IMG/VR virus record: IMGVR_UViG_2778261535_000015
Coordinates: 1-9,800 of that record
Strand: one strand, 5' to 3'
Length of the DNA stretch: 9,800 nucleotides
DNA from: a virus
Taxonomy: Duplodnaviria > Heunggongvirae > Uroviricota > Caudoviricetes
Position 1 is the first letter of the stretch. Each line of letters begins with the position of its first letter. This document shows, in pieces, positions 2,449-9,800 of the stretch. Below the pieces are notes generated by a model, which made no database searches, was not told the origin of the DNA, and worked only from the letters and a program-made list of their open reading frames with translations. Made by a program: the position numbers and the translations under genes.

Positions 2449-2796
2449 ATGGACACGGCAAAAATCTTTAAACTCTCAGATAGTCATACAGCGTTATCAA
2501 ATGTGTTTATACGGATTAAGGATAAAAGAACACCTTGCGGTAATTACTTTTTCCGTTTGGATAAGTTGGACTGCGTTTCGTTAGCAGATAATTCAGGACT
2601 AACACCATTAATTGAGGTTACTGGTGGGTATGTTGAACCCAGCGTCACTTATGAGCAATTCATGAGTTTTCTTTTTCAGGTATTTGATGACGTATCAAAA
2701 GGTGATAACAGCATCAGAGTTTATGAGTTGATTGTTGATGAAGAAACCGTGCGAGATGTACCACCTCGCACAAGAAAAACGATAACGCCACAGTGA
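2449..2796 (+). CDS. Hypothetical protein (about 116 aa), low-GC accessory gene
   Basis: The ORF track begins at a TTG at 2440; the ATG at 2449 is the more plausible start. About 30% G+C on the sampled line 2461-2520, against a much richer backbone. No recognisable motif. Confidence 0.5.
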   Translation: MDTAKIFKLSDSHTALSNVFIRIKDKRTPCGNYFFRLDKLDCVSLADNSGLTPLIEVTGGYVEPSVTYEQFMSFLFQVFDDVSKGDNSIRVYELIVDEETVRDVPPRTRKTITPQ

Positions 2797-2800
2797 TGGA

Positions 2801-3280
2801 TTATTTGAACCATTTACTAGATGGGTGAGTGTCACCAATGTGGTGCGTTTCCTCGAAAGATTTTGAGAAGTGCATGCCGGGGATAGCGACATCGGCTTGA
2901 TCCAGAATAGGAGCGTCGATAATGGCATTAAGGAAAAACTGGGCATTTTGCTTTGCTAATTCTAATGAGTCAAAGCCATTTCCTGAACTTTCGGTAACTT
3001 TAGACAGTTGTCCATTTTTTGAGATAAATAATTCCCAGCCCCATAGCGATTCATGCTGTTTTAAAGAAATAACTACAGATGGACAGTTTTCTGTATCGCC
3101 AGAATTAATATCGTCACCAGCCTTAATAAAGATTGGCGATTCCATAAGGCCTACAAAGTTCTCAAGGTCATCAATGGCTTTAGGTCTTGTTTCAAATAGT
3201 GGACTTTCAAAGAGGGGGGCACCATCGGAAAGCACCCAGTGTGATCCGTGGTCTTTTTTAAAAAATACATTGAATTTCAT
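2801..3280 (-). CDS. Hypothetical protein (159 aa), low-GC accessory gene opposing the early operon
   Basis: The minus-strand ORF 2801-3328 has an internal ATG at 3278-3280 preceded by AAGGAG at 5-nt spacing (reverse complement of 3287-3292), giving MKFNVFFKKDHGSHW.... Composition is protein-like. The overlapping plus-strand ORF 2922-3344 is low-complexity and rejected. Confidence 0.6.
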   Translation of the reverse strand: MKFNVFFKKDHGSHWVLSDGAPLFESPLFETRPKAIDDLENFVGLMESPIFIKAGDDINSGDTENCPSVVISLKQHESLWGWELFISKNGQLSKVTESSGNGFDSLELAKQNAQFFLNAIIDAPILDQADVAIPGMHFSKSFEETHHIGDTHPSSKWFK

Positions 3281-3418: not shown

Positions 3419-3640
3419 ATGGACTTAACACAGTGCCCTTCACTCGCCAGCCTGCTCACCCACGGCCAGCAGATCACCCACCGTCAGCATCAACGTGGCT
3501 GGATTGAAACCCCGGACGGGAGGTTCTTCCAGCCGAAAGCGTTAGATGTTCAATTTGTTAAAAACTACCGTGTACCGTTCATGTCGCGCCCGCGTAATAA
3601 GCGCCGCTGGTTTTCCCGCTTAATGGGCATCTTTGCGTAG
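3419..3640 (+). CDS. Hypothetical small early-operon protein (73 aa from the preferred start)
   Basis: The ORF track runs 3347-3640. The ATG at 3419 has GGAG 6 nt upstream; the ATG at 3404 has no ribosome-binding site. G+C is backbone-like. Basic C-terminus RPRNKRRWFSRLMGIFA. Confidence 0.4.
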   Translation: MDLTQCPSLASLLTHGQQITHRQHQRGWIETPDGRFFQPKALDVQFVKNYRVPFMSRPRNKRRWFSRLMGIFA

Positions 3641-3655
3641 TTCGGGGAGGTGGTT

Positions 3656-4045
3656 ATGTTGATGGATAAGACAGAACAACAGCCAGGTCGCCGCCAGTTC
3701 TTAGAGCAACGGGCGCGGCTGCAAGCCAGTTTGAACGCCTCACGCGTGAATGACACTGCAACCCGTTTTAACCGCCTGGATGATGCCTGCAAAAAGGTGA
3801 TTTTCATCCTGGCAAACGATGCGTCCAGATACATAGTCGGAATGCCGAAGCTGACCGCCAAACAGCTGGGTTGTACTTACGAAAATCTAACCGAAAAGGA
3901 GCAAACGTGCCTTTTGATGGGCATTAAGCGCCTTTCCGAATTTGCAGCATCAATGCCGTGGGAATTTGAGGACTACGCCGCACCACGCGCCGAAATTCAG
4001 GCGATACGCGACAAACCACCCGCGCCAGATAACGCAGTAAATTAA
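3656..4045 (+). CDS. Hypothetical early-operon protein (about 129 aa)
   Basis: GGAGG at 3646-3650 precedes the ATG at 3656 by 5 nt; the ORF track starts at the GTG at 3650, which overlaps that site. The position corresponds to the P2 B / orf80-83 region, but no motif was recognised. Confidence 0.5.
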   Translation: MLMDKTEQQPGRRQFLEQRARLQASLNASRVNDTATRFNRLDDACKKVIFILANDASRYIVGMPKLTAKQLGCTYENLTEKEQTCLLMGIKRLSEFAASMPWEFEDYAAPRAEIQAIRDKPPAPDNAVN

Positions 4046-4115
4046 CAACTAACTACCCACAAAAAAGAAACAGGCGCTAACGCGTCGGGCTTCTTGCACC
4101 CTGGAGAAAGTAAAA

Positions 4116-5081
4116 ATGATTCGATCTCTCGTTAAATGGCCCGGTGGTAAAGGCCGCGTTATGCCTGATTTGCTGCCGATTCTGCCGAAAGCCGATTGCC
4201 TGGTGGAACCGTTTGTCGGCGGTGCTTCTGTTTTCCTCAATACTGAATATCGCCGTTATATCCTGGGTGATATCAACCCAGATTTAATTAACCTGTATCG
4301 CCAGATAACCCGCTGGCCTGATGCGGTGATCGACGCTGCTCGCCCACTGTTTAAAGTGTACGGCGATAAAGACGGCTATAAGTGGATCCGCGATGATTTC
4401 AACGCCCGCGCACGTGACCTACTGTCATTGCGCAGTGTGTTTGAAGATGGGCCGGACGCGGGCAAGATTCTTCGTGCAGCACAATTTCTTTACCTGAACC
4501 GTCACGGATATAACGGCGTAGTACGCTACAACCAACAGGGTGGATATAACGTTCCCTTTGGGCGTCACAAAACCCCGCCTTACTTCCCGGAAGAACAGAT
4601 CCGTTTATTCTCTGAAAAAGCTAACGACACGAAAGCCATTTTCGTGTGCTGCGATTTCCAGAGCACGTTAAAAATCATGATTGGTAGTGACGCGGTTATC
4701 TACTGCGATCCGCCATACCTGCCAACAAGCGAAACAGCTAATTTCACCCAATATCACACAGCCCCGTTTGGCATTAAAGAACATCGCCAGTTAGCTGCCG
4801 CCCTGCTGGATATTAACCGCCTTACTGGTTCGCCGGTGATCCTGTCCAATAGCGACACCCCAGCCACCCGCGAGATTTATCGCTCTTTCAACTTCCAGGA
4901 AATTATCGTTAACCGTTCTGTCAGCGCGAACGCCATTACCAGAGGGGCCGCCAGTGAAGTGATCGGCGTCCTCAAAGTCTGCGCGACTTGTCGCCGTGCC
5001 GGTGGTGGGTGCTGCCCTGACTGCGGCCCTTGTGCTGGTTATTCCGTGTGGGGTGGAACGGCTGACGAGGTGCTCTTCTGA
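4116..5081 (+). CDS. dam: DNA adenine (N6) methyltransferase, Dam family, with a Cys-rich C-terminal extension
   Basis: N-terminus LVKWPGGKGRVMPDLLPILPKADCLVEPFVGGASVFLN parallels the E. coli Dam AdoMet-binding region. The catalytic DPPY motif is in IYCDPPYLPTSETANFTQYHT. GGAGA ribosome-binding site 8 nt upstream. An extra tail of about 35 aa, CATCRRAGGGCCPDCGPCAG, follows the Dam-like core. Confidence 0.9.
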   Translation: MIRSLVKWPGGKGRVMPDLLPILPKADCLVEPFVGGASVFLNTEYRRYILGDINPDLINLYRQITRWPDAVIDAARPLFKVYGDKDGYKWIRDDFNARARDLLSLRSVFEDGPDAGKILRAAQFLYLNRHGYNGVVRYNQQGGYNVPFGRHKTPPYFPEEQIRLFSEKANDTKAIFVCCDFQSTLKIMIGSDAVIYCDPPYLPTSETANFTQYHTAPFGIKEHRQLAAALLDINRLTGSPVILSNSDTPATREIYRSFNFQEIIVNRSVSANAITRGAASEVIGVLKVCATCRRAGGGCCPDCGPCAGYSVWGGTADEVLF

Positions 5082-5302
5082 TGGCTAGCAAAATTAATAA
5101 CGGTCTTTCGGAATACCAGCGCGGCGCACTGGCTGCGCTTAACGAAGCCAAAACACTGGCCCTTGCACACGCAACGTTGGCGGGTGTTCTCGCCGGAAGT
5201 GAAGCCGCAAACACGCTGTTGATTTCTTTCAATGTGTTACTCGACCCGCTAATCGAAAAGCATTCCCAGCGGGAGGGTGATAGCGGGGCATCCAATGTCT
5301 GA
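5081..5302 (+). CDS. Hypothetical small Ala-rich protein (73 aa), translationally coupled to dam and A
   Basis: Its ATG overlaps the dam stop (TGATG at 5079-5083) and its stop overlaps the ATG of the replication gene (ATGTCTGA at 5295-5302). No motif recognised. Confidence 0.4.
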   Translation: MASKINNGLSEYQRGALAALNEAKTLALAHATLAGVLAGSEAANTLLISFNVLLDPLIEKHSQREGDSGASNV

Positions 5303-7910
5303 CACCGCTTTTGCATGGCCCTGGAACGCGCCGCGCCCAGCTATTGGCCTGTACACCTACGAACCGAAAAAAATCGCCCCGCTTGCAGGGGCGGTGGTAC
5401 ATCATCCAGCCGTAAAAAAACACATCGATCACATCTTCAAACGCGCCGGTTACAACCCCGACGAGGTTCGGGACCGTAACGCGCTTATCCAGGCGCTGGA
5501 CAGGTACGAACCGTGCGGCCTGCTACTGGCCGCCCATCAAAATATAATCCGGCAGGAAATGGAAGCCGCTAAAGCTACGACGGCAGCCTGGGTCAATACG
5601 CCGGAAGGTGTCGAAGCGCGTTTATTATCAGAGCCGTTCTTCATTCGTGAAGTCTGGCGTAAAAAAATTGAGTGGTTACGGGTCAACCGTGAAACCAGAC
5701 ACACCAATGATTTTCTTATGGGGACCGTGAAAAAATCATTGCTGCGTCTTGATGTTGTACGCACAAGGCAAGGTGTTTCGCCTGATATCACCGGCGAACT
5801 GGCTGCGTACTGGTTCGGGCGCTGGCAACGTCTGGCTGATTTCACAAAGCGGGAAGCACTGAGCGCCGCTAATGAGATCGCCAGCCGCATGGCTGAAATG
5901 CTGGGGACGGAATGCGAAGCCCTGGGACGGAATGTTTCAGACATGAACGTCGAAGAATTGGACTGGCTTTATTGCCACCTGGGCCGCGAAATGCTGGCGC
6001 TTCGCATTGTACCGCCTGCATGGTATGCGCCGTGGGAACGCGAGCGCATATGCACGGCCATTTTGCGTATGGCTTCGCCTGACTGGTGGGGGCGTAAAAT
6101 CTGGCGCTTGCGTTGTGACTGGCGCGAGAACCAGCTGCGTGCTGTTGGCGCGGTAAATAAAAAAGCGCACGCCTACGTTAGCGTTTCCAGCCTGATCGAG
6201 TGGCAGGAACAGCGCCGTAAAAACCGGGATTTTTTCAAAAGTCATGAACTGGTAGACGAAGACGGCAACGTTTCGTCGCTTGAGGAAATGATTAATAAAT
6301 CCACGTCTAACCCGGCTATTCGTCGCCATGAGCTTATGGCCCGAATGGCTGGGGTTGAGCTTGTCGCCCAAAGTCGCGGCGATGTTGGCATCTTCCTGAC
6401 CATCACTTGCCCGTCGAAATATCACAGTAATATTGCGTCCGGCCACCATAACGCCAAATGGAATCATTCCACCGTCGCCCAGGCGCAGCGCTATTTATGC
6501 CGAGTATGGAACCGGGCAACCGCCAAACTGAAACGCGAAGATTTGCGCCCTTACGGCTTCCGCGTCGCTGAGCCGCATCATGATGGGACACCACACTGGC
6601 ACGCATTGCTATTTATGCCACAAGAGCAAGTTAAAGCCACGGTTGCGATCCTTCGCGCCTACTTCATTGCGGAAGACCGCGACGAGCTGGGCCGCAATAC
6701 CGGTGCTCGTTTCAAGTCAAAAAAAATGGACCCACGGAAAGGGTCAGCAACGGCGTATATCGCGAAATACATTTCGAAGAATATCGACGGCCACGCGCTG
6801 GCCGGTGAACTGGACGACGAAAGCGGCAAGCCGCTGAATGAAACAGCCAAATATGCAATGGCCTGGGCGTCACTTCACCGCATCCGCCAGTTTCAGCCCA
6901 TCGGACAGCCGCCCATATCGGTTTACCGCGAGCTGCGCAAACTGAGCAATCAGATCACGACCCGCCAGAAAATTGACAATACCTTCAAGCGCGGTGCGCC
7001 GTTGCTTGTGGATCCTGCAATGGATGCGGTTTGCGCCGCTGCCGATGTCGGGTGCTTTGCTACCTACATCATCCGCCAGGGTGGTGTTTTGATCCCGCGT
7101 GAAAACTATGTCGTCCGTCTGGCCTATCAGCCAGCTGATGAAATGAATGCTTATTGTGAGATCCCCGAAAAGGTTTTCGGGGTCTGGTCGCCGCGTCTGG
7201 GTGATGCCTCCCGTATTTGCACCCGTCTGGTTAAGTGGAAAATCCGCGCCAAATCCAAAGCTACCACCGAGGCCAAAAATGGCCCCGGTTTGGGGGTTGA
7301 CCTTTTGCCGTCGCCAACCGGCGACGCTTGGAGTTCTGTCAATAACTCTACGGAAGCCGAAAAAATCACCAATTTTTCGCCTGATGTGGAGGATATGACA
7401 GAAGAGTCAGAAGAAGAAATCGTCGATTTTGAAAATTTGGACCAGTCAACGCGGCGCAAATTGATGCGGCGACTACGTGAAACACCATTCAAAAGGCAGA
7501 AAAGCGGATCGCCTTACGAGCTAGGAAGCGAATTAGATGCCGCCTGGCGTTCTGCCGTGGAAAAAACCGAGGCCAGATCGGCGGCTGAAAAAGCCAAGCG
7601 GGCAGTTCTTGCCCCTGCGGTTGCCAGTCTGCTGGCTGATGCGGCGTTGTGTTTGGTTGAGATTTCAGAGATTCAGGCCGTTTCGCTGTTAATGGGGAGC
7701 CGTCTGGCTATTGGCGGAAAAGTTTATCAGGCCAGTGCTGGCGGACAGTTGATAACGCGTCAATTGCCTGATGAGTCACGGACGGTGAAAAAATTATGGG
7801 AACGTTTACGGGATAACCACGGCATTGATGCCACGCGCCTGCGGTTTGATCCGGTCGGGGAGTATCAAAAAATGCTGGCGGATGCGGAAGATTACCACCA
7901 AAAAGAATGA
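5295..7910 (+). CDS. A: Rolling-circle replication initiation endonuclease, P2 gpA-like (HUH superfamily)
   Basis: HUH metal-binding motif EPHHDGTPHWHALLF (about 6580-6612). Paired catalytic tyrosines in ATAYIAKYISKN (Tyr codons at 6756-6758 and 6768-6770), resembling the phiX174/P2 gpA active site. The ORF track starts at the GTG at 5277; the ATG at 5295 is preferred because it overlaps the upstream stop. Position after the early genes matches P2 gene A. Confidence 0.9.
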   Translation: MSDTAFAWPWNAPRPAIGLYTYEPKKIAPLAGAVVHHPAVKKHIDHIFKRAGYNPDEVRDRNALIQALDRYEPCGLLLAAHQNIIRQEMEAAKATTAAWVNTPEGVEARLLSEPFFIREVWRKKIEWLRVNRETRHTNDFLMGTVKKSLLRLDVVRTRQGVSPDITGELAAYWFGRWQRLADFTKREALSAANEIASRMAEMLGTECEALGRNVSDMNVEELDWLYCHLGREMLALRIVPPAWYAPWERERICTAILRMASPDWWGRKIWRLRCDWRENQLRAVGAVNKKAHAYVSVSSLIEWQEQRRKNRDFFKSHELVDEDGNVSSLEEMINKSTSNPAIRRHELMARMAGVELVAQSRGDVGIFLTITCPSKYHSNIASGHHNAKWNHSTVAQAQRYLCRVWNRATAKLKREDLRPYGFRVAEPHHDGTPHWHALLFMPQEQVKATVAILRAYFIAEDRDELGRNTGARFKSKKMDPRKGSATAYIAKYISKNIDGHALAGELDDESGKPLNETAKYAMAWASLHRIRQFQPIGQPPISVYRELRKLSNQITTRQKIDNTFKRGAPLLVDPAMDAVCAAADVGCFATYIIRQGGVLIPRENYVVRLAYQPADEMNAYCEIPEKVFGVWSPRLGDASRICTRLVKWKIRAKSKATTEAKNGPGLGVDLLPSPTGDAWSSVNNSTEAEKITNFSPDVEDMTEESEEEIVDFENLDQSTRRKLMRRLRETPFKRQKSGSPYELGSELDAAWRSAVEKTEARSAAEKAKRAVLAPAVASLLADAALCLVEISEIQAVSLLMGSRLAIGGKVYQASAGGQLITRQLPDESRTVKKLWERLRDNHGIDATRLRFDPVGEYQKMLADAEDYHQKE

Positions 7911-7999
7911 ATTCAATCACGCTATCCGTCGCAGCTGGTTGTGTCGGTTGGTGTGATTCTGCGGGGATGGGTGGTGCAGTGCTCGAATTGATAGGAAGT

Positions 8000-8249
8000 T
8001 GCATGTAACATTTTTCTACGAAGCGCGATAAATTAATAATTCTAAAATGAGTCTGTCAGGTTACTCAACTAAGAGTTCTGCTAACTTATCCGCATTTCTG
8101 TCATTCTTAAGGGTAGAAGACCTATCAAAAAATTGAATTAGTGTATATCTCACATCACCACACTGTGGCTGTAGATAAATGTTACTATTTTGTATATCGT
8201 AGTTGTCACTTATTCAAAATGGTTACACCTAAAAATTTCAAGGTAGAAA
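8000..8249 (+). promoter_or_regulatory. AT-rich leader / putative promoter region for the cargo gene
   Basis: Abrupt composition shift near 8000. Multiple TTGnnn and TAtAnT-like hexamers, and a weak AAGGTAG ribosome-binding site before the ATG at 8250. No single -35/-10 pair could be assigned confidently. Confidence 0.3.
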
Positions 8250-9800
8250 ATGGACGAGCATATTTCTGAATTCCTTTTTAATAATTACCGTGAAGACAAT
8301 CATGCAATGAAACTATTAGCTTGGTTGGTTATTGATAAGAATAATACAGCGAATCGGATTACGGCTCGCCTCAAGCATGCAGTTGAAAATCAAAAAGTAA
8401 TAACAAAGCCTCGTTTTATTCGCAGAGTTGATAAGTATCATAAATTTTATAATTTGAACCGGCCTCAACCGCTAAATGTATTAAACTCAAGTAAAAGAAT
8501 TCACTCATTACAGGTTTGTGATTTTCGAGGTTTTGGGCGTCTCACGGATGAAGATTTAGGTGTGAAATTTAAATTTAATAAGTTAAATAATATTTTCTTT
8601 GCTCCCAATGGAGGTGGAAAAAGTAGTTTGTGTGAGGTTCTTGAATATCAAACGACAGGTGATATTAAAGAGGCCGGTAGAAGAAAAACTTCAATAAAAA
8701 ATTATATACGAAGAAATGGGAAACATATTATAAGCTTATTAGATCATACTGGTAAGCCTATTCAAGCAAATCCAGATTATAAGTATAATTTTATAGATAG
8801 AAACAGACTGCAAGAATTTTCATTGTTAGGGTCTAATGATACAAAATTTGGTGAGAGGGATGTCCTTGCGGCTCTAGTTGGATTGGAAAATTTTGATGAT
8901 TTTTTATCAATGCTAGTTGCGCCAAGAAGTTTTAATGCCCTTAGTTTTATTAAAAATGAGCATGCGAATAAACTGGAATCTCTTGAGTCTCAGCTTGAAA
9001 GACTAAGGATAAGCTCTTCTGAAAATAACGCTGAACTAAGATCTATTAAATCAGAAATTATAAAATCTCTTGGCTGTGACTTTAAAAATCTTAGCGAGAG
9101 ATACATTGATAATGTTGTTAGAATAAAGTTGCCTCATATTAAAAAATATCATTTGAAATTGAATGAAAAAAAAGAACAGTTAAAAAAAGGGATTCCTTCA
9201 GTAGAGATTCCTTTAGAACATTCTCGCAGGATTTTGGCTATATTATGTAATTTATTGCAGAAAAAGAAAAGAATAGAGACAAAACTCAATGAGATTGTTT
9301 ATGATGCTAATAGCATTGCATTATTTAAATTGTCCAAGAAAATATTGACCGAACAGAAGTATAGTGCTTGTCCTCTTTGTAATACATCTTTAGCCGAAGT
9401 GAATAAAGATCCATTAGTTAACGCTATAGATATACTAAACTCTTATGTGCATGTTACAAACTTACAAACATGTCTCAATGAAACTTTAGCACTTATTCAG
9501 AAGTTTACTACTATAGTGTCAGATGCTTTGAGAGCATTTCTTATTTCACCTGTTAATGTAAATGTTGATTGTGATTTTAAAGCGCTGGCAGATATATCAA
9601 ATAATATAAGTGTAAGTAATGACGATGTAATTCTAGGTTATATGCTGTCTTTAGATGATATTTTAAAGTCATGTGGTACATTAGATTTGTATAATGAGAA
9701 AGCTAAACAACATAATGTAATAATAAAAAAAACGGAGAATACATTAAAAAAAATAATTTCAAGAATCAACATCTCTCAAGTTTCAGTATATTATATTTAA
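8250..9800 (+). CDS. Hotspot cargo protein: P-loop (ABC/SMC/Rad50-like) ATPase, 516 aa; candidate anti-phage defence gene
   Basis: Line counts give 19/60 and 13/60 G+C within this gene against 37/60 inside gene A. Walker A FFAPNGGGKSSLCEVLEY (about 8601-8650) is preceded by the beta-strand pattern IHSLQVCDFRGFG typical of RecF/SbcC/SMC heads. A coiled-coil-like region follows (LESLESQLERLRISSSENNAELRSIKSEI). CPLC motif at 9369-9380. Stop TAA at 9798-9800. Sits directly downstream of gene A. Confidence 0.75.
   Translation: MDEHISEFLFNNYREDNHAMKLLAWLVIDKNNTANRITARLKHAVENQKVITKPRFIRRVDKYHKFYNLNRPQPLNVLNSSKRIHSLQVCDFRGFGRLTDEDLGVKFKFNKLNNIFFAPNGGGKSSLCEVLEYQTTGDIKEAGRRKTSIKNYIRRNGKHIISLLDHTGKPIQANPDYKYNFIDRNRLQEFSLLGSNDTKFGERDVLAALVGLENFDDFLSMLVAPRSFNALSFIKNEHANKLESLESQLERLRISSSENNAELRSIKSEIIKSLGCDFKNLSERYIDNVVRIKLPHIKKYHLKLNEKKEQLKKGIPSVEIPLEHSRRILAILCNLLQKKKRIETKLNEIVYDANSIALFKLSKKILTEQKYSACPLCNTSLAEVNKDPLVNAIDILNSYVHVTNLQTCLNETLALIQKFTTIVSDALRAFLISPVNVNVDCDFKALADISNNISVSNDDVILGYMLSLDDILKSCGTLDLYNEKAKQHNVIIKKTENTLKKIISRINISQVSVYYI

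What the first reader, a model, noticed from the sequence alone, without database searches (positions are those of the whole stretch)
8000..9800. AT-rich cargo island directly after replication gene A, the P2 tin/old hotspot position
Composition switches abruptly about 90 bp after the gene A stop: counted 60-nt lines fall from about 62% G+C inside gene A to about 22-32% inside the next gene. In P2-like phages the slot after gene A holds variable anti-phage cargo (tin and old in P2 itself) and is a described defence hotspot. A compositionally foreign gene here is therefore a strong candidate for an anti-phage or superinfection-exclusion function. The window ends at this gene's stop, so further components may lie downstream.
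Basis: partly seen in the sequence, partly recalled or inferred. Interest (0 to 1): 0.85.

Follow-up and report, generated by a model that had tools for sequence, protein, structure and literature searches.

The report
Prophage cargo: Rad50-like ATPase gene, cut short
The AT-rich stretch after replication gene A is real. It is the first half of a single foreign gene in the known variable "defence hotspot" of a P2-like E. coli prophage, encoding a 941-residue Rad50/SMC-like ATPase of untested function, and the stop codon at the window's end is an artefact of a faulty contig end.

Summary
G+C drops from 54% in gene A to 31% at position 7986, 76 bp after the gene A stop. The slot is the P2 gpA-gpQ hotspot: three related prophages or phages share the flanks but carry three unrelated cargos.

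The window comes from a draft E. coli contig that ends 54 bp later. A sibling assembly is identical over 11,481 bp, then differs by 25 substitutions, with no indels, in the contig's last 124 bp. The TAA is GAA in every sibling.

The real gene encodes 941 residues and is the only gene between A and ogr/Q, so no further components lie downstream.

The protein is a coiled-coil ABC ATPase with Walker A and a CPLC zinc hook inside the window. The signature motif, a Walker B with Asp for the catalytic Glu, the H-loop and a family-private C-terminal domain lie beyond it.

It is not recognised as any named defence system. LmuB (Lamassu) and RloC are the nearest analogues, and it fails membership tests for both. 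Relatives sit in a type I R-M operon, in other P2-like phages and in apparent accessory-gene regions. A defence role is likely but untested.

The parts
5295..7910 (+). Replication gene A (Phage_GPA, 871 aa as called). This is the conserved left flank of the hotspot.
   Evidence: Pfam Phage_GPA on the called gene. 94% DNA identity to Salmonella phage SI7 'nicking at origin of replication'. G+C 54.1%.
7911..7985 (+). Conserved sequence after gene A. It is shared with relatives that carry other cargo and marks the end of the left flank. The GC-rich hairpin present in the relatives is degenerate here.
   Evidence: Three-way alignment with the GN06156 prophage and phage SI7 stays alignable to about 7985 and is then lost. 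Megablast homology to SI7 ends at 7965.
7986..8249 (+). Left end of the AT-rich cargo cassette: the 5' untranslated and promoter region. A TTTTGTATA block (candidate -10 TATATC at 8193-8198) is conserved with a 62%-identical relative. An AAGG ribosome-binding site lies at 8240-8243.
   Evidence: G+C change point at 7986. The conserved upstream block appears in the alignment with L008. The promoter assignment is an inference; the consensus scan found nothing above chance.
8250..9730 (+). Authentic coding sequence, codons 1-493 of a 941-codon gene. It covers the N-terminal helical region (aa 1-70), ATPase lobe I, the ascending coiled coil, the zinc hook and part of the descending coiled coil.
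   Evidence: Residues 1-493 are identical to the 941-aa cluster representative P0143. The DNA is identical to sibling L022. It matches positions 11-444 of a 950-position family profile at E 6e-82.
8601..8627 (+). Walker A / P-loop, APNGGGKSS (aa 118-126).
   Evidence: Invariant in family alignments. Coordinates.
9369..9380 (+). CPLC zinc-hook motif (aa 374-377) at the apex between long predicted helices.
   Evidence: C-P-x-C is conserved across the family. The AF2 model places helices at 236-367 and 388-514 on either side of the loop (low confidence).
9731..9800 (+). Corrupted contig-end segment: 12 substitutions relative to siblings, and a false TAA at 9798-9800 where siblings have GAA (Glu517).
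   Evidence: There are 0 mismatches to L022 over 11,481 bp, then 25 substitutions with no indels in the last 124 bp of contig NMHT01000072.1. G>T plus C>A make up 11 of the 25.

Best explanation
Window 7986-9800 is the left 58% of a single-gene cargo cassette of about 3.1 kb. It sits in the gpA-ogr/gpQ variable hotspot of a P2-like prophage integrated beside yegR in E. coli.

Shown here:
- The gene encodes a 941-aa coiled-coil ABC ATPase of the Rad50/SMC class.
- Its parts are an N-terminal helical region of about 85 aa, Walker A, an antiparallel coiled coil with a CPLC zinc hook, the signature LSEGH, a Walker B FIVFDD (Asp in place of the catalytic Glu), the H-loop TTHD, and a C-terminal domain of about 230 aa found only in this family.

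Strongly inferred:
- The 516-codon ORF and its TAA are products of an error-laden draft-contig end, not biology.

Inferred by analogy with Rad50, LmuB and RloC, and not shown:
- The protein dimerises through the zinc hook.
- Its heads and coiled coil sense an abnormal nucleic-acid state created by an infecting phage, such as DNA ends or replication intermediates.
- This releases a toxic activity of the C-terminal domain. That domain carries invariant Arg-x3-Glu and His residues, reminiscent of the RloC/PrrC anticodon-nuclease triad.
- The result would be exclusion of competing phages from the lysogen.
For: Location and variability:
- Siblings L021-L024 show the order int...A, 941-aa gene, ogr, Q, P.
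- The flanks are conserved while the cargo differs in the GN06156 prophage (an unrelated 925-aa protein) and in phage SI7 (a 66-aa ORF plus a methyltransferase). Junctions are shown.
- The hotspot is described in PMC9122126.

Foreign origin:
- 31% G+C against 54% in gene A.
- No DNA match in 5,426 complete E. coli genomes and no match in 50,697 phage records.

Artefact:
-.
- Eleven of the 15 listed cluster members are shorter than 941 aa.

Protein class:
- SMC_N scores above Pfam's cut-off on P0143.
- Rad50, SMC3 and SMC are the best PDB sequence hits.
- Relatives match the LmuB model PDLC03859 at up to E 5e-28.
- AAA_13, which by my recollection is the Pfam family of PrrC and RloC, matches relative P0124 at E 4e-8 over the ATPase part.

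Context of relatives:
- Inside an hsdM-hsdS operon.
- After gene A of another P2-like phage.
- After a diversity-generating retroelement in a P2-like phage.
- Beside a 1321-aa DUF4365 protein, and in another genome near an HTH_37/Gp49 pair and a DEAD + T5orf172 pair, which I read as toxin-antitoxin-like and defence-like.

C-terminal domain:
- Invariant R..R-x3-E and N-x2-H residues.
- Present in only 99 clusters at 50% identity, all with the same architecture.
Against: - No experiment links this family to phage resistance.
- PADLOC, NCBIfam and PHROGs give no family-level assignment for P0143.
- The Glu-to-His spacing is 67 residues, outside RloC's 36-52 range (PMC2610378).
- The Arg of a HEPN-type R-x(4-6)-H motif is present in only some members.
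- Not every cargo in this hotspot is defensive. Partition systems and toxins also occur there (PMC9122126).
- The artefact reading was not checked against raw reads.
Confidence: 0.6

Rival explanations
1. The 516-aa ORF is a genuine, strain-specific truncated allele. It would be a pseudogene, or a free-standing N-terminal half acting as a decoy or dominant-negative fragment.
For: The TAA is present in the deposited assembly, and RefSeq lists the product as WP_097439762.1. Truncated N-terminal relatives do exist inside long contigs or genomes, for example P0013 (508 aa, followed by an unrelated gene) and P0004, P0008 and P0011. The closest distinct relative, P0001, carries an in-frame TAA with homology continuing after it.
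Against: The divergence is confined to the last 124 bp of a contig, after 11,481 bp of perfect identity to a sibling. It runs at 20% substitutions with no indels, is dominated by G>T and C>A changes, and puts stops in all frames. The exact 516-aa product occurs on one contig only, against at least 24 contigs for the 941-aa form. The ORF ends inside the descending coiled coil, not at a domain border.
Confidence: 0.1
2. The gene is the LmuB subunit of a Lamassu system, and its partners LmuA and LmuC lie downstream, outside the window.
For: The best PADLOC hits of relatives are LmuB models. The window ORF hits LmuB at E 3e-8 over 73 residues. Many LmuB proteins have a CPxC hook and a non-Glu residue after the Walker B Asp (PMC10586767).
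Against: In four sibling loci nothing lies between this gene and ogr, and gene A is immediately upstream. Relatives share no conserved neighbour. The protein is about 300 aa longer than LmuB because of its own C-terminal domain. P0143 itself matches LmuB only over its first 73 ATPase residues.
Confidence: 0.05
3. It is a divergent RloC: a Rad50-like zinc-hook ATPase that controls a C-terminal anticodon nuclease. It would cut tRNA when phage infection or DNA damage is sensed.
For: The order of parts matches RloC as described in PMC2610378: ABC ATPase head, coiled coil with CxxC hook, C-terminal domain. Arg-x3-Glu and a downstream His are invariant. The Walker B reads DD-x-V-N-A-I-D, which resembles the AAA_13 form as I recall it. 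One relative sits in a type I R-M operon, as some rloC genes do. AAA_13 matches relative P0124 at E 4e-8.
Against: The AAA_13 score is below the gathering cut-off, and the match stops at profile position 578 of 713, before the C-terminal part of the profile. The Glu-to-His spacing is 67, not 36-52. A profile of the C-terminal domain found only this family among 1.84 billion representatives. There is no structural support.
Confidence: 0.2
4. It serves the prophage itself, as an SbcC/Rad50-like repair, recombination or maintenance factor, and is not a defence protein.
For: Rad50 and SMC are the best solved-structure relatives. About a quarter of P2-like hotspots carry partition genes rather than defence genes (PMC9122126).
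Against: There is no Mre11/SbcD-type nuclease partner. The gene is absent from most relatives of the same phage. Its composition is foreign. Relatives occur in non-phage contexts such as an R-M operon and an apparent accessory-gene region with toxin-antitoxin-like genes. Asp replaces the catalytic Glu in Walker B.
Confidence: 0.1

Closest known systems
P2 gpA-gpQ hotspot cargo (old and tin in P2; Rousset et al. 2022, PMC9122126)
   Same: Same slot, between replication gene A and ogr/portal Q. The flanks are conserved, the content is variable, and the G+C is low and foreign.
   Different: The cargo is unrelated to Old (ABC ATPase + TOPRIM) and to Tin. It is a single 941-aa gene that no PADLOC model recognises. 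This locus would have been dropped from that survey, which discarded loci split across two contigs.
RloC (Rad50-like zinc-hook ATPase + anticodon nuclease; Davidov & Kaufmann 2008, PMC2610378)
   Same: A single polypeptide with an ABC ATPase head interrupted by a coiled coil and a CxxC hook, followed by a C-terminal domain with conserved Arg-x3-Glu...His. Some members are linked to type I R-M loci.
   Different: It scores below the Pfam AAA_13 threshold. The C-terminal domain is not detectably homologous. The Glu-to-His spacing is 67 rather than 36-52. It has an extra N-terminal region of about 85 aa and, in the 940-aa subfamily, a C-terminal helical hairpin.
LmuB of Lamassu / DdmC (SMC-like sensor; PMC10586767)
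   Same: A Rad50-like ATPase with a short coiled coil, often with a CPxC hook, and with a substituted catalytic Glu. It gives the best PADLOC similarity for relatives.
   Different: There are no LmuA or LmuC genes. The presumed effector is fused rather than separate. The Walker B residue is Asp, not Gln.
Rad50 / SbcC
   Same: The best solved-structure relatives by sequence. Shared features are the zinc-hook coiled coil and the ABC head motifs.
   Different: There is no Mre11/SbcD partner. The coiled coil is much shorter. It has extra terminal domains and sits on a mobile cassette.

Membership tests
P2 gpA-gpQ hotspot cargo | Lies between replication gene A and ogr/portal gene Q | tested here: met
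   Siblings L021-L024 show the order A, 941-aa gene, ogr(-), portal(-), terminase(-). The window itself shows only the A side.
P2 gpA-gpQ hotspot cargo | Different content between the same conserved flanks in related phages | tested here: met
   Three unrelated cargos are found: this gene, a 925-aa protein in GN06156, and a 66-aa ORF plus a methyltransferase in SI7.
P2 gpA-gpQ hotspot cargo | Confers resistance to other phages | not testable with these tools
   This needs cloning and a phage challenge.
Coiled-coil ABC ATPase (Rad50/SMC class) | Walker A, signature, Walker B and H-loop split by an antiparallel coiled coil | tested here: met
   Motif positions in P0143 are given. SMC_N scores 42.7 bits against a cut-off of 40. 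Rad50 and SMC are the top PDB hits. Only Walker A and the hook lie inside the window.
Coiled-coil ABC ATPase (Rad50/SMC class) | CxxC zinc hook at the coiled-coil apex (Rad50 type) | tested here: met
   CPLC at aa 374-377, with C-P-x-C conserved family-wide. Metal binding itself was not tested.
Lamassu (LmuB) | Adjacent LmuA effector gene, with or without LmuC | tested here: not met
   It is the only gene between A and ogr in four sibling loci. Relatives share no conserved neighbour.
Lamassu (LmuB) | Full-length match to an LmuB model | tested here: inconclusive
   Relatives match PDLC03859 at E 1e-19 to 5e-28. P0143 matches PDLC03865 only over 73 residues, at E 7e-10.
RloC / PrrC (Pfam AAA_13) | Passes the AAA_13 gathering threshold, including the C-terminal nuclease region | tested here: not met
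   The best score is 32.8 bits against a cut-off of 36, covering profile positions 9-578 of 713 only. P0143 has no AAA_13 hit.
RloC / PrrC (Pfam AAA_13) | Arg-X3-Glu-X36-52-His catalytic triad | tested here: inconclusive
   R-x3-E and a His are invariant, but the spacing is 67 residues and there is no fold support. The motif definition comes from PMC2610378.
OLD (P2 old) | ABC ATPase fused to a TOPRIM nuclease domain | tested here: not met
   Pfam and PADLOC find no TOPRIM, OLD or GajA match on P0143.
Rad50/SbcC repair complex | Partner Mre11/SbcD nuclease gene | tested here: not met
   No such gene is present in the sibling loci.

The most novel reading that the evidence does not exclude
The 941-aa protein founds an undescribed single-polypeptide immune system. 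A Rad50-like zinc-hook ATPase would sense phage DNA ends or replication intermediates and unleash a fused effector domain private to this family, possibly a new HEPN-like RNase. The family comprises about 100 clusters at 50% identity and is spread by P2-like phage hotspots and R-M operons.
Probability: 0.35. Interest if true: 0.6.

Novelty: new variant of a known kind. Interest (0 to 1): 0.4.

Why it matters
If the gene is active, it adds a compact one-gene member to the SMC/Rad50-like branch of bacterial immunity. Its effector is fused to the sensor, which would make it an easier system than three-part Lamassu for asking how coiled-coil ATPases turn DNA sensing into toxicity. It would also add one more defence candidate to the P2 hotspot catalogue.

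The case also carries a practical warning. The last 100 bases or so of a draft contig can create false stops, and very AT-rich cargo genes appear prone to ending up there: 11 of the 15 listed cluster members are shorter than the 941-aa form. Surveys that drop split loci will miss such genes.

Tried and rejected
- IS insertion at the contig end: the last 76 bases have no repeat-like matches in 5,426 E. coli genomes. Rejected.
- Simple homopolymer frameshift: all three frames close, and siblings show substitutions only. Rejected.
- Split gene cut at a domain border: the ORF ends about 80-100 residues before the coiled coil returns to the head. Rejected.
- DGR-type mutagenesis of the tail: the substitutions are not adenine-specific. 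Rejected.
- Foldseek on the window-ORF model: Rad50, JetC, SMC and LmuB rank at the top, but none is significant.
- The afdb50 fold library was unavailable.
- Pfam and PADLOC scans of isolated C-terminal domains: no hits.
- Supplement search of Rousset et al. for this protein: not found, and the files were truncated when stored.
- DefensePredictor paper: no mention of SMC or Rad50.

Full report
**Observation**

G+C is 54.1% in gene A (5295-7910; GC3 57%) and 30.6% in the ORF at 8250-9800 (GC3 22%). The maximum-likelihood change point is at 7986, 76 bp after the gene A stop. The 62% figure applies only to single 60-nt lines.

**Where the window comes from**

An exact-protein look-up places the ORF on NCBI assembly GCA_002511955.1, contig NMHT01000072.1 (36,741 bp). 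The contig ends 54 bp after the ORF's TAA. The flank holding gatR, yegS and yegR is 97% identical to E. coli chromosomes. The phage part is a P2-like prophage (Peduoviridae). Its closest deposited phage is Salmonella phage SI7, at 94% identity over window 3434-7965.

**The stop codon is not real**

- The 516-aa product (WP_097439762.1) belongs to a 90%-identity cluster whose representative, P0143, is 941 aa. Identical-length copies occur in E. coli and Citrobacter freundii.
- P0143 is encoded on at least 24 contigs.
- Locus L022 (Logan assembly of SRR11430528) is identical to the source contig over 11,481 bp. It then differs at 25 positions, with no indels, in the contig's final 124 bp. That stretch is window 9731-9800 plus the 54 bases beyond.
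- G>T and C>A changes account for 11 of the 25.
- The TAA at 9798-9800 is GAA (Glu517) in all siblings.
- The window protein equals P0143 at residues 1-493 and differs at 9 of the last 23 residues.
- Perfect identity followed by 20% substitution exactly at a contig end is what erroneous read tails produce in a low-coverage, 23-28% G+C region.
- Eleven of the 15 listed cluster members are shorter than 941 aa, and several of these are labelled partial.

I rate the artefact reading at about 0.85. Raw reads were not available to prove it.

**The island as a whole**

In siblings L021-L024 the order is int, C-like repressor, cox..., dam, A, 941-aa gene, ogr(-), portal Q(-), terminase P(-), O, N, M, L. 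The AT-rich block runs for about 3.1 kb and returns to about 50% G+C at ogr. The gene's stop is followed by the hairpin AAGCCCCG-TTTTT-CGGGGCTT, and ogr starts 34 bp after the stop. There is exactly one gene in the island, so no further components lie downstream.

**Variable slot**

With the same integrase and attachment site, E. coli GN06156 carries an unrelated 925-aa protein between A and ogr. Phage SI7 carries a 66-aa ORF plus a methyltransferase there. Alignments lose homology at window position ~7985 on the left and regain it at the ogr stop on the right. Rousset et al. 2022 describe this gpA-gpQ locus as a hotspot holding old and tin in P2, with 1,650 gene arrangements in E. coli (PMC9122126). 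The cargo found here is rare. It has no DNA match, near or distant, in 5,426 complete E. coli genomes, and no tblastn match in 50,697 phage records.

**What the protein is**

- Pfam SMC_N passes its threshold on P0143 (42.7 bits against a cut-off of 40), and AAA_23 falls just below.
- A family profile finds Rad50, SMC3 and SMC as the best solved relatives.
- Motifs inside the window are Walker A APNGGGKSS (aa 118-126) and CPLC (aa 374-377).
- Motifs beyond the window are LSEGH (642-646), Walker B FIVFDD (666-671), followed by VVNAID, and TTHD (702-705).
- Asp replaces the catalytic Glu in Walker B. This recalls the Glu-to-Gln change typical of LmuB (PMC10586767) and suggests slow ATP turnover.
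- The window ORF matches positions 11-444 of the 950-position family profile at E 6e-82. It breaks off inside the descending coiled coil, about 80-100 residues before the chain returns to the head.
- AF2 on the window ORF gives the expected strands around the P-loop and long helices on both sides of the hook, but with low confidence (pLDDT 63). Foldseek ranks Rad50, JetC, SMC, RecF and LmuB first, none significantly.

**The family**

A profile search returned 304 proteins at E ≤ 1e-5. Most of the best 120 listed are 940-967 aa, chiefly from Pseudomonas, Halomonas, Achromobacter and Stenotrophomonas, and are annotated only as "AAA family ATPase" or mislabelled DndD.

The C-terminal 230 residues carry invariant R..R-x3-E and N-x2-H. 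A profile of this domain, searched against 1.84 billion representatives, finds only 99 clusters. Their lengths and match positions fit this same architecture or fragments of it. The domain is therefore private to the family.

No fold could be assigned to it. Pfam and PADLOC see nothing in it. PADLOC, NCBIfam and PHROGs give no family-level call on the whole protein.

**Context of relatives**

- P0001 (62% identical) also follows a Phage_GPA gene.
- P0014 follows a bAvd-RT retroelement in a P2-like phage.
- P0024 overlaps hsdS in an hsdM-hsdS operon.
- Pseudomonas copies sit beside a 1321-aa DUF4365 protein.
- Halomonas copies sit near an HTH_37/Gp49 gene pair and a DEAD + T5orf172 pair, which I read as toxin-antitoxin-like and defence-like.
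- No partner gene is conserved across these contexts, which argues for a stand-alone protein.

**Comparison with known systems**

- It works most like RloC: a zinc-hook Rad50-like ATPase with a fused C-terminal effector, sometimes linked to R-M loci (PMC2610378). It also resembles LmuB.
- RloC membership fails. AAA_13 scores below its threshold and aligns only to the ATPase part, and the Glu-to-His spacing is 67 rather than 36-52.
- Lamassu membership fails for want of LmuA and LmuC.
- OLD membership fails for want of a TOPRIM domain.
- Rad50/SbcC membership fails for want of an Mre11/SbcD partner.

**Mechanism**

This part is inferred. Hook-mediated dimers would sense phage-generated DNA structures through the heads and coiled coil, and then activate the C-terminal domain, possibly an RNase, to stop the infected cell or the invader.

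| Claim | Confidence |
|---|---|
| Hotspot cargo | about 0.95 |
| The stop is an artefact | about 0.85 |
| Defence role | about 0.6 |
| RNase effector | about 0.2 |

**Verdict**

The cargo is an uncharacterised variant of the coiled-coil ABC ATPase defence theme. It is of moderate interest as a candidate and is not surprising for this locus.

Noticed in passing
L008 4020-4105 (contig of P0001, the 62%-identical relative): The relative's gene, also located directly after a Phage_GPA gene, has an in-frame TAA at the position of window codon 354. Protein-level homology continues in the same frame after it. This is a nonsense mutation or a sequencing error in a metagenome contig that ends 56 bp later.
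   Followed up: partly
window 2449-3280: A convergent pair of small genes lies after cox: orf115 (+) and orf159 (-). Their G+C is 39-40%, against about 50% in the neighbours. They match PHROGs 10410 and 9021, both of unknown function. This may be a second, smaller accessory module of the prophage.
   Followed up: partly
L003 23753-26530 (E. coli GN06156 prophage): The same A-ogr slot holds an unrelated 925-aa hypothetical protein (WP_242880320.1). It shows no similarity to the ATPase family, and its function is unknown.
   Followed up: partly
P0197 (805-aa family member from the representative search): Trp appears wherever the family has Gly, for example APNWWWKSS for APNGGGKSS. This suggests a genome that reads UGA as Gly (code 25, Gracilibacteria/SR1-like) translated with the wrong table. 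The family therefore reaches such lineages.
   Followed up: no
L004 6126-10661: In a P2-like phage contig, a family member (P0014) sits immediately downstream of a diversity-generating retroelement (bAvd + reverse transcriptase). Whether the two are functionally linked is unknown.
   Followed up: no
L005 3082-7910; L006; L007: Subfamily member P0024 (878 aa) overlaps the stop of hsdS by 4 bp. In L005 and L006 it is followed by a 263-aa gene without Pfam domains, and L007 holds the start of a gene at the same spacing. This could be a partner specific to that subfamily.
   Followed up: no
window 7940-7985: The GC-rich hairpin after gene A, GCGGGC...GCCCGC followed by a T-run, is present in the GN06156 prophage and phage SI7 but degenerate in this prophage. 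Transcription from gene A may therefore read into the cargo.
   Followed up: no
L020 7641-7657 and cluster members P0147-P0154: Contigs repeatedly end inside or just after genes of this family: 16 bp after the stop of P0003, and many members of the E. coli/Citrobacter cluster are shorter than the 941-aa form. This fits coverage drop-outs in very AT-rich cargo DNA.
   Followed up: partly
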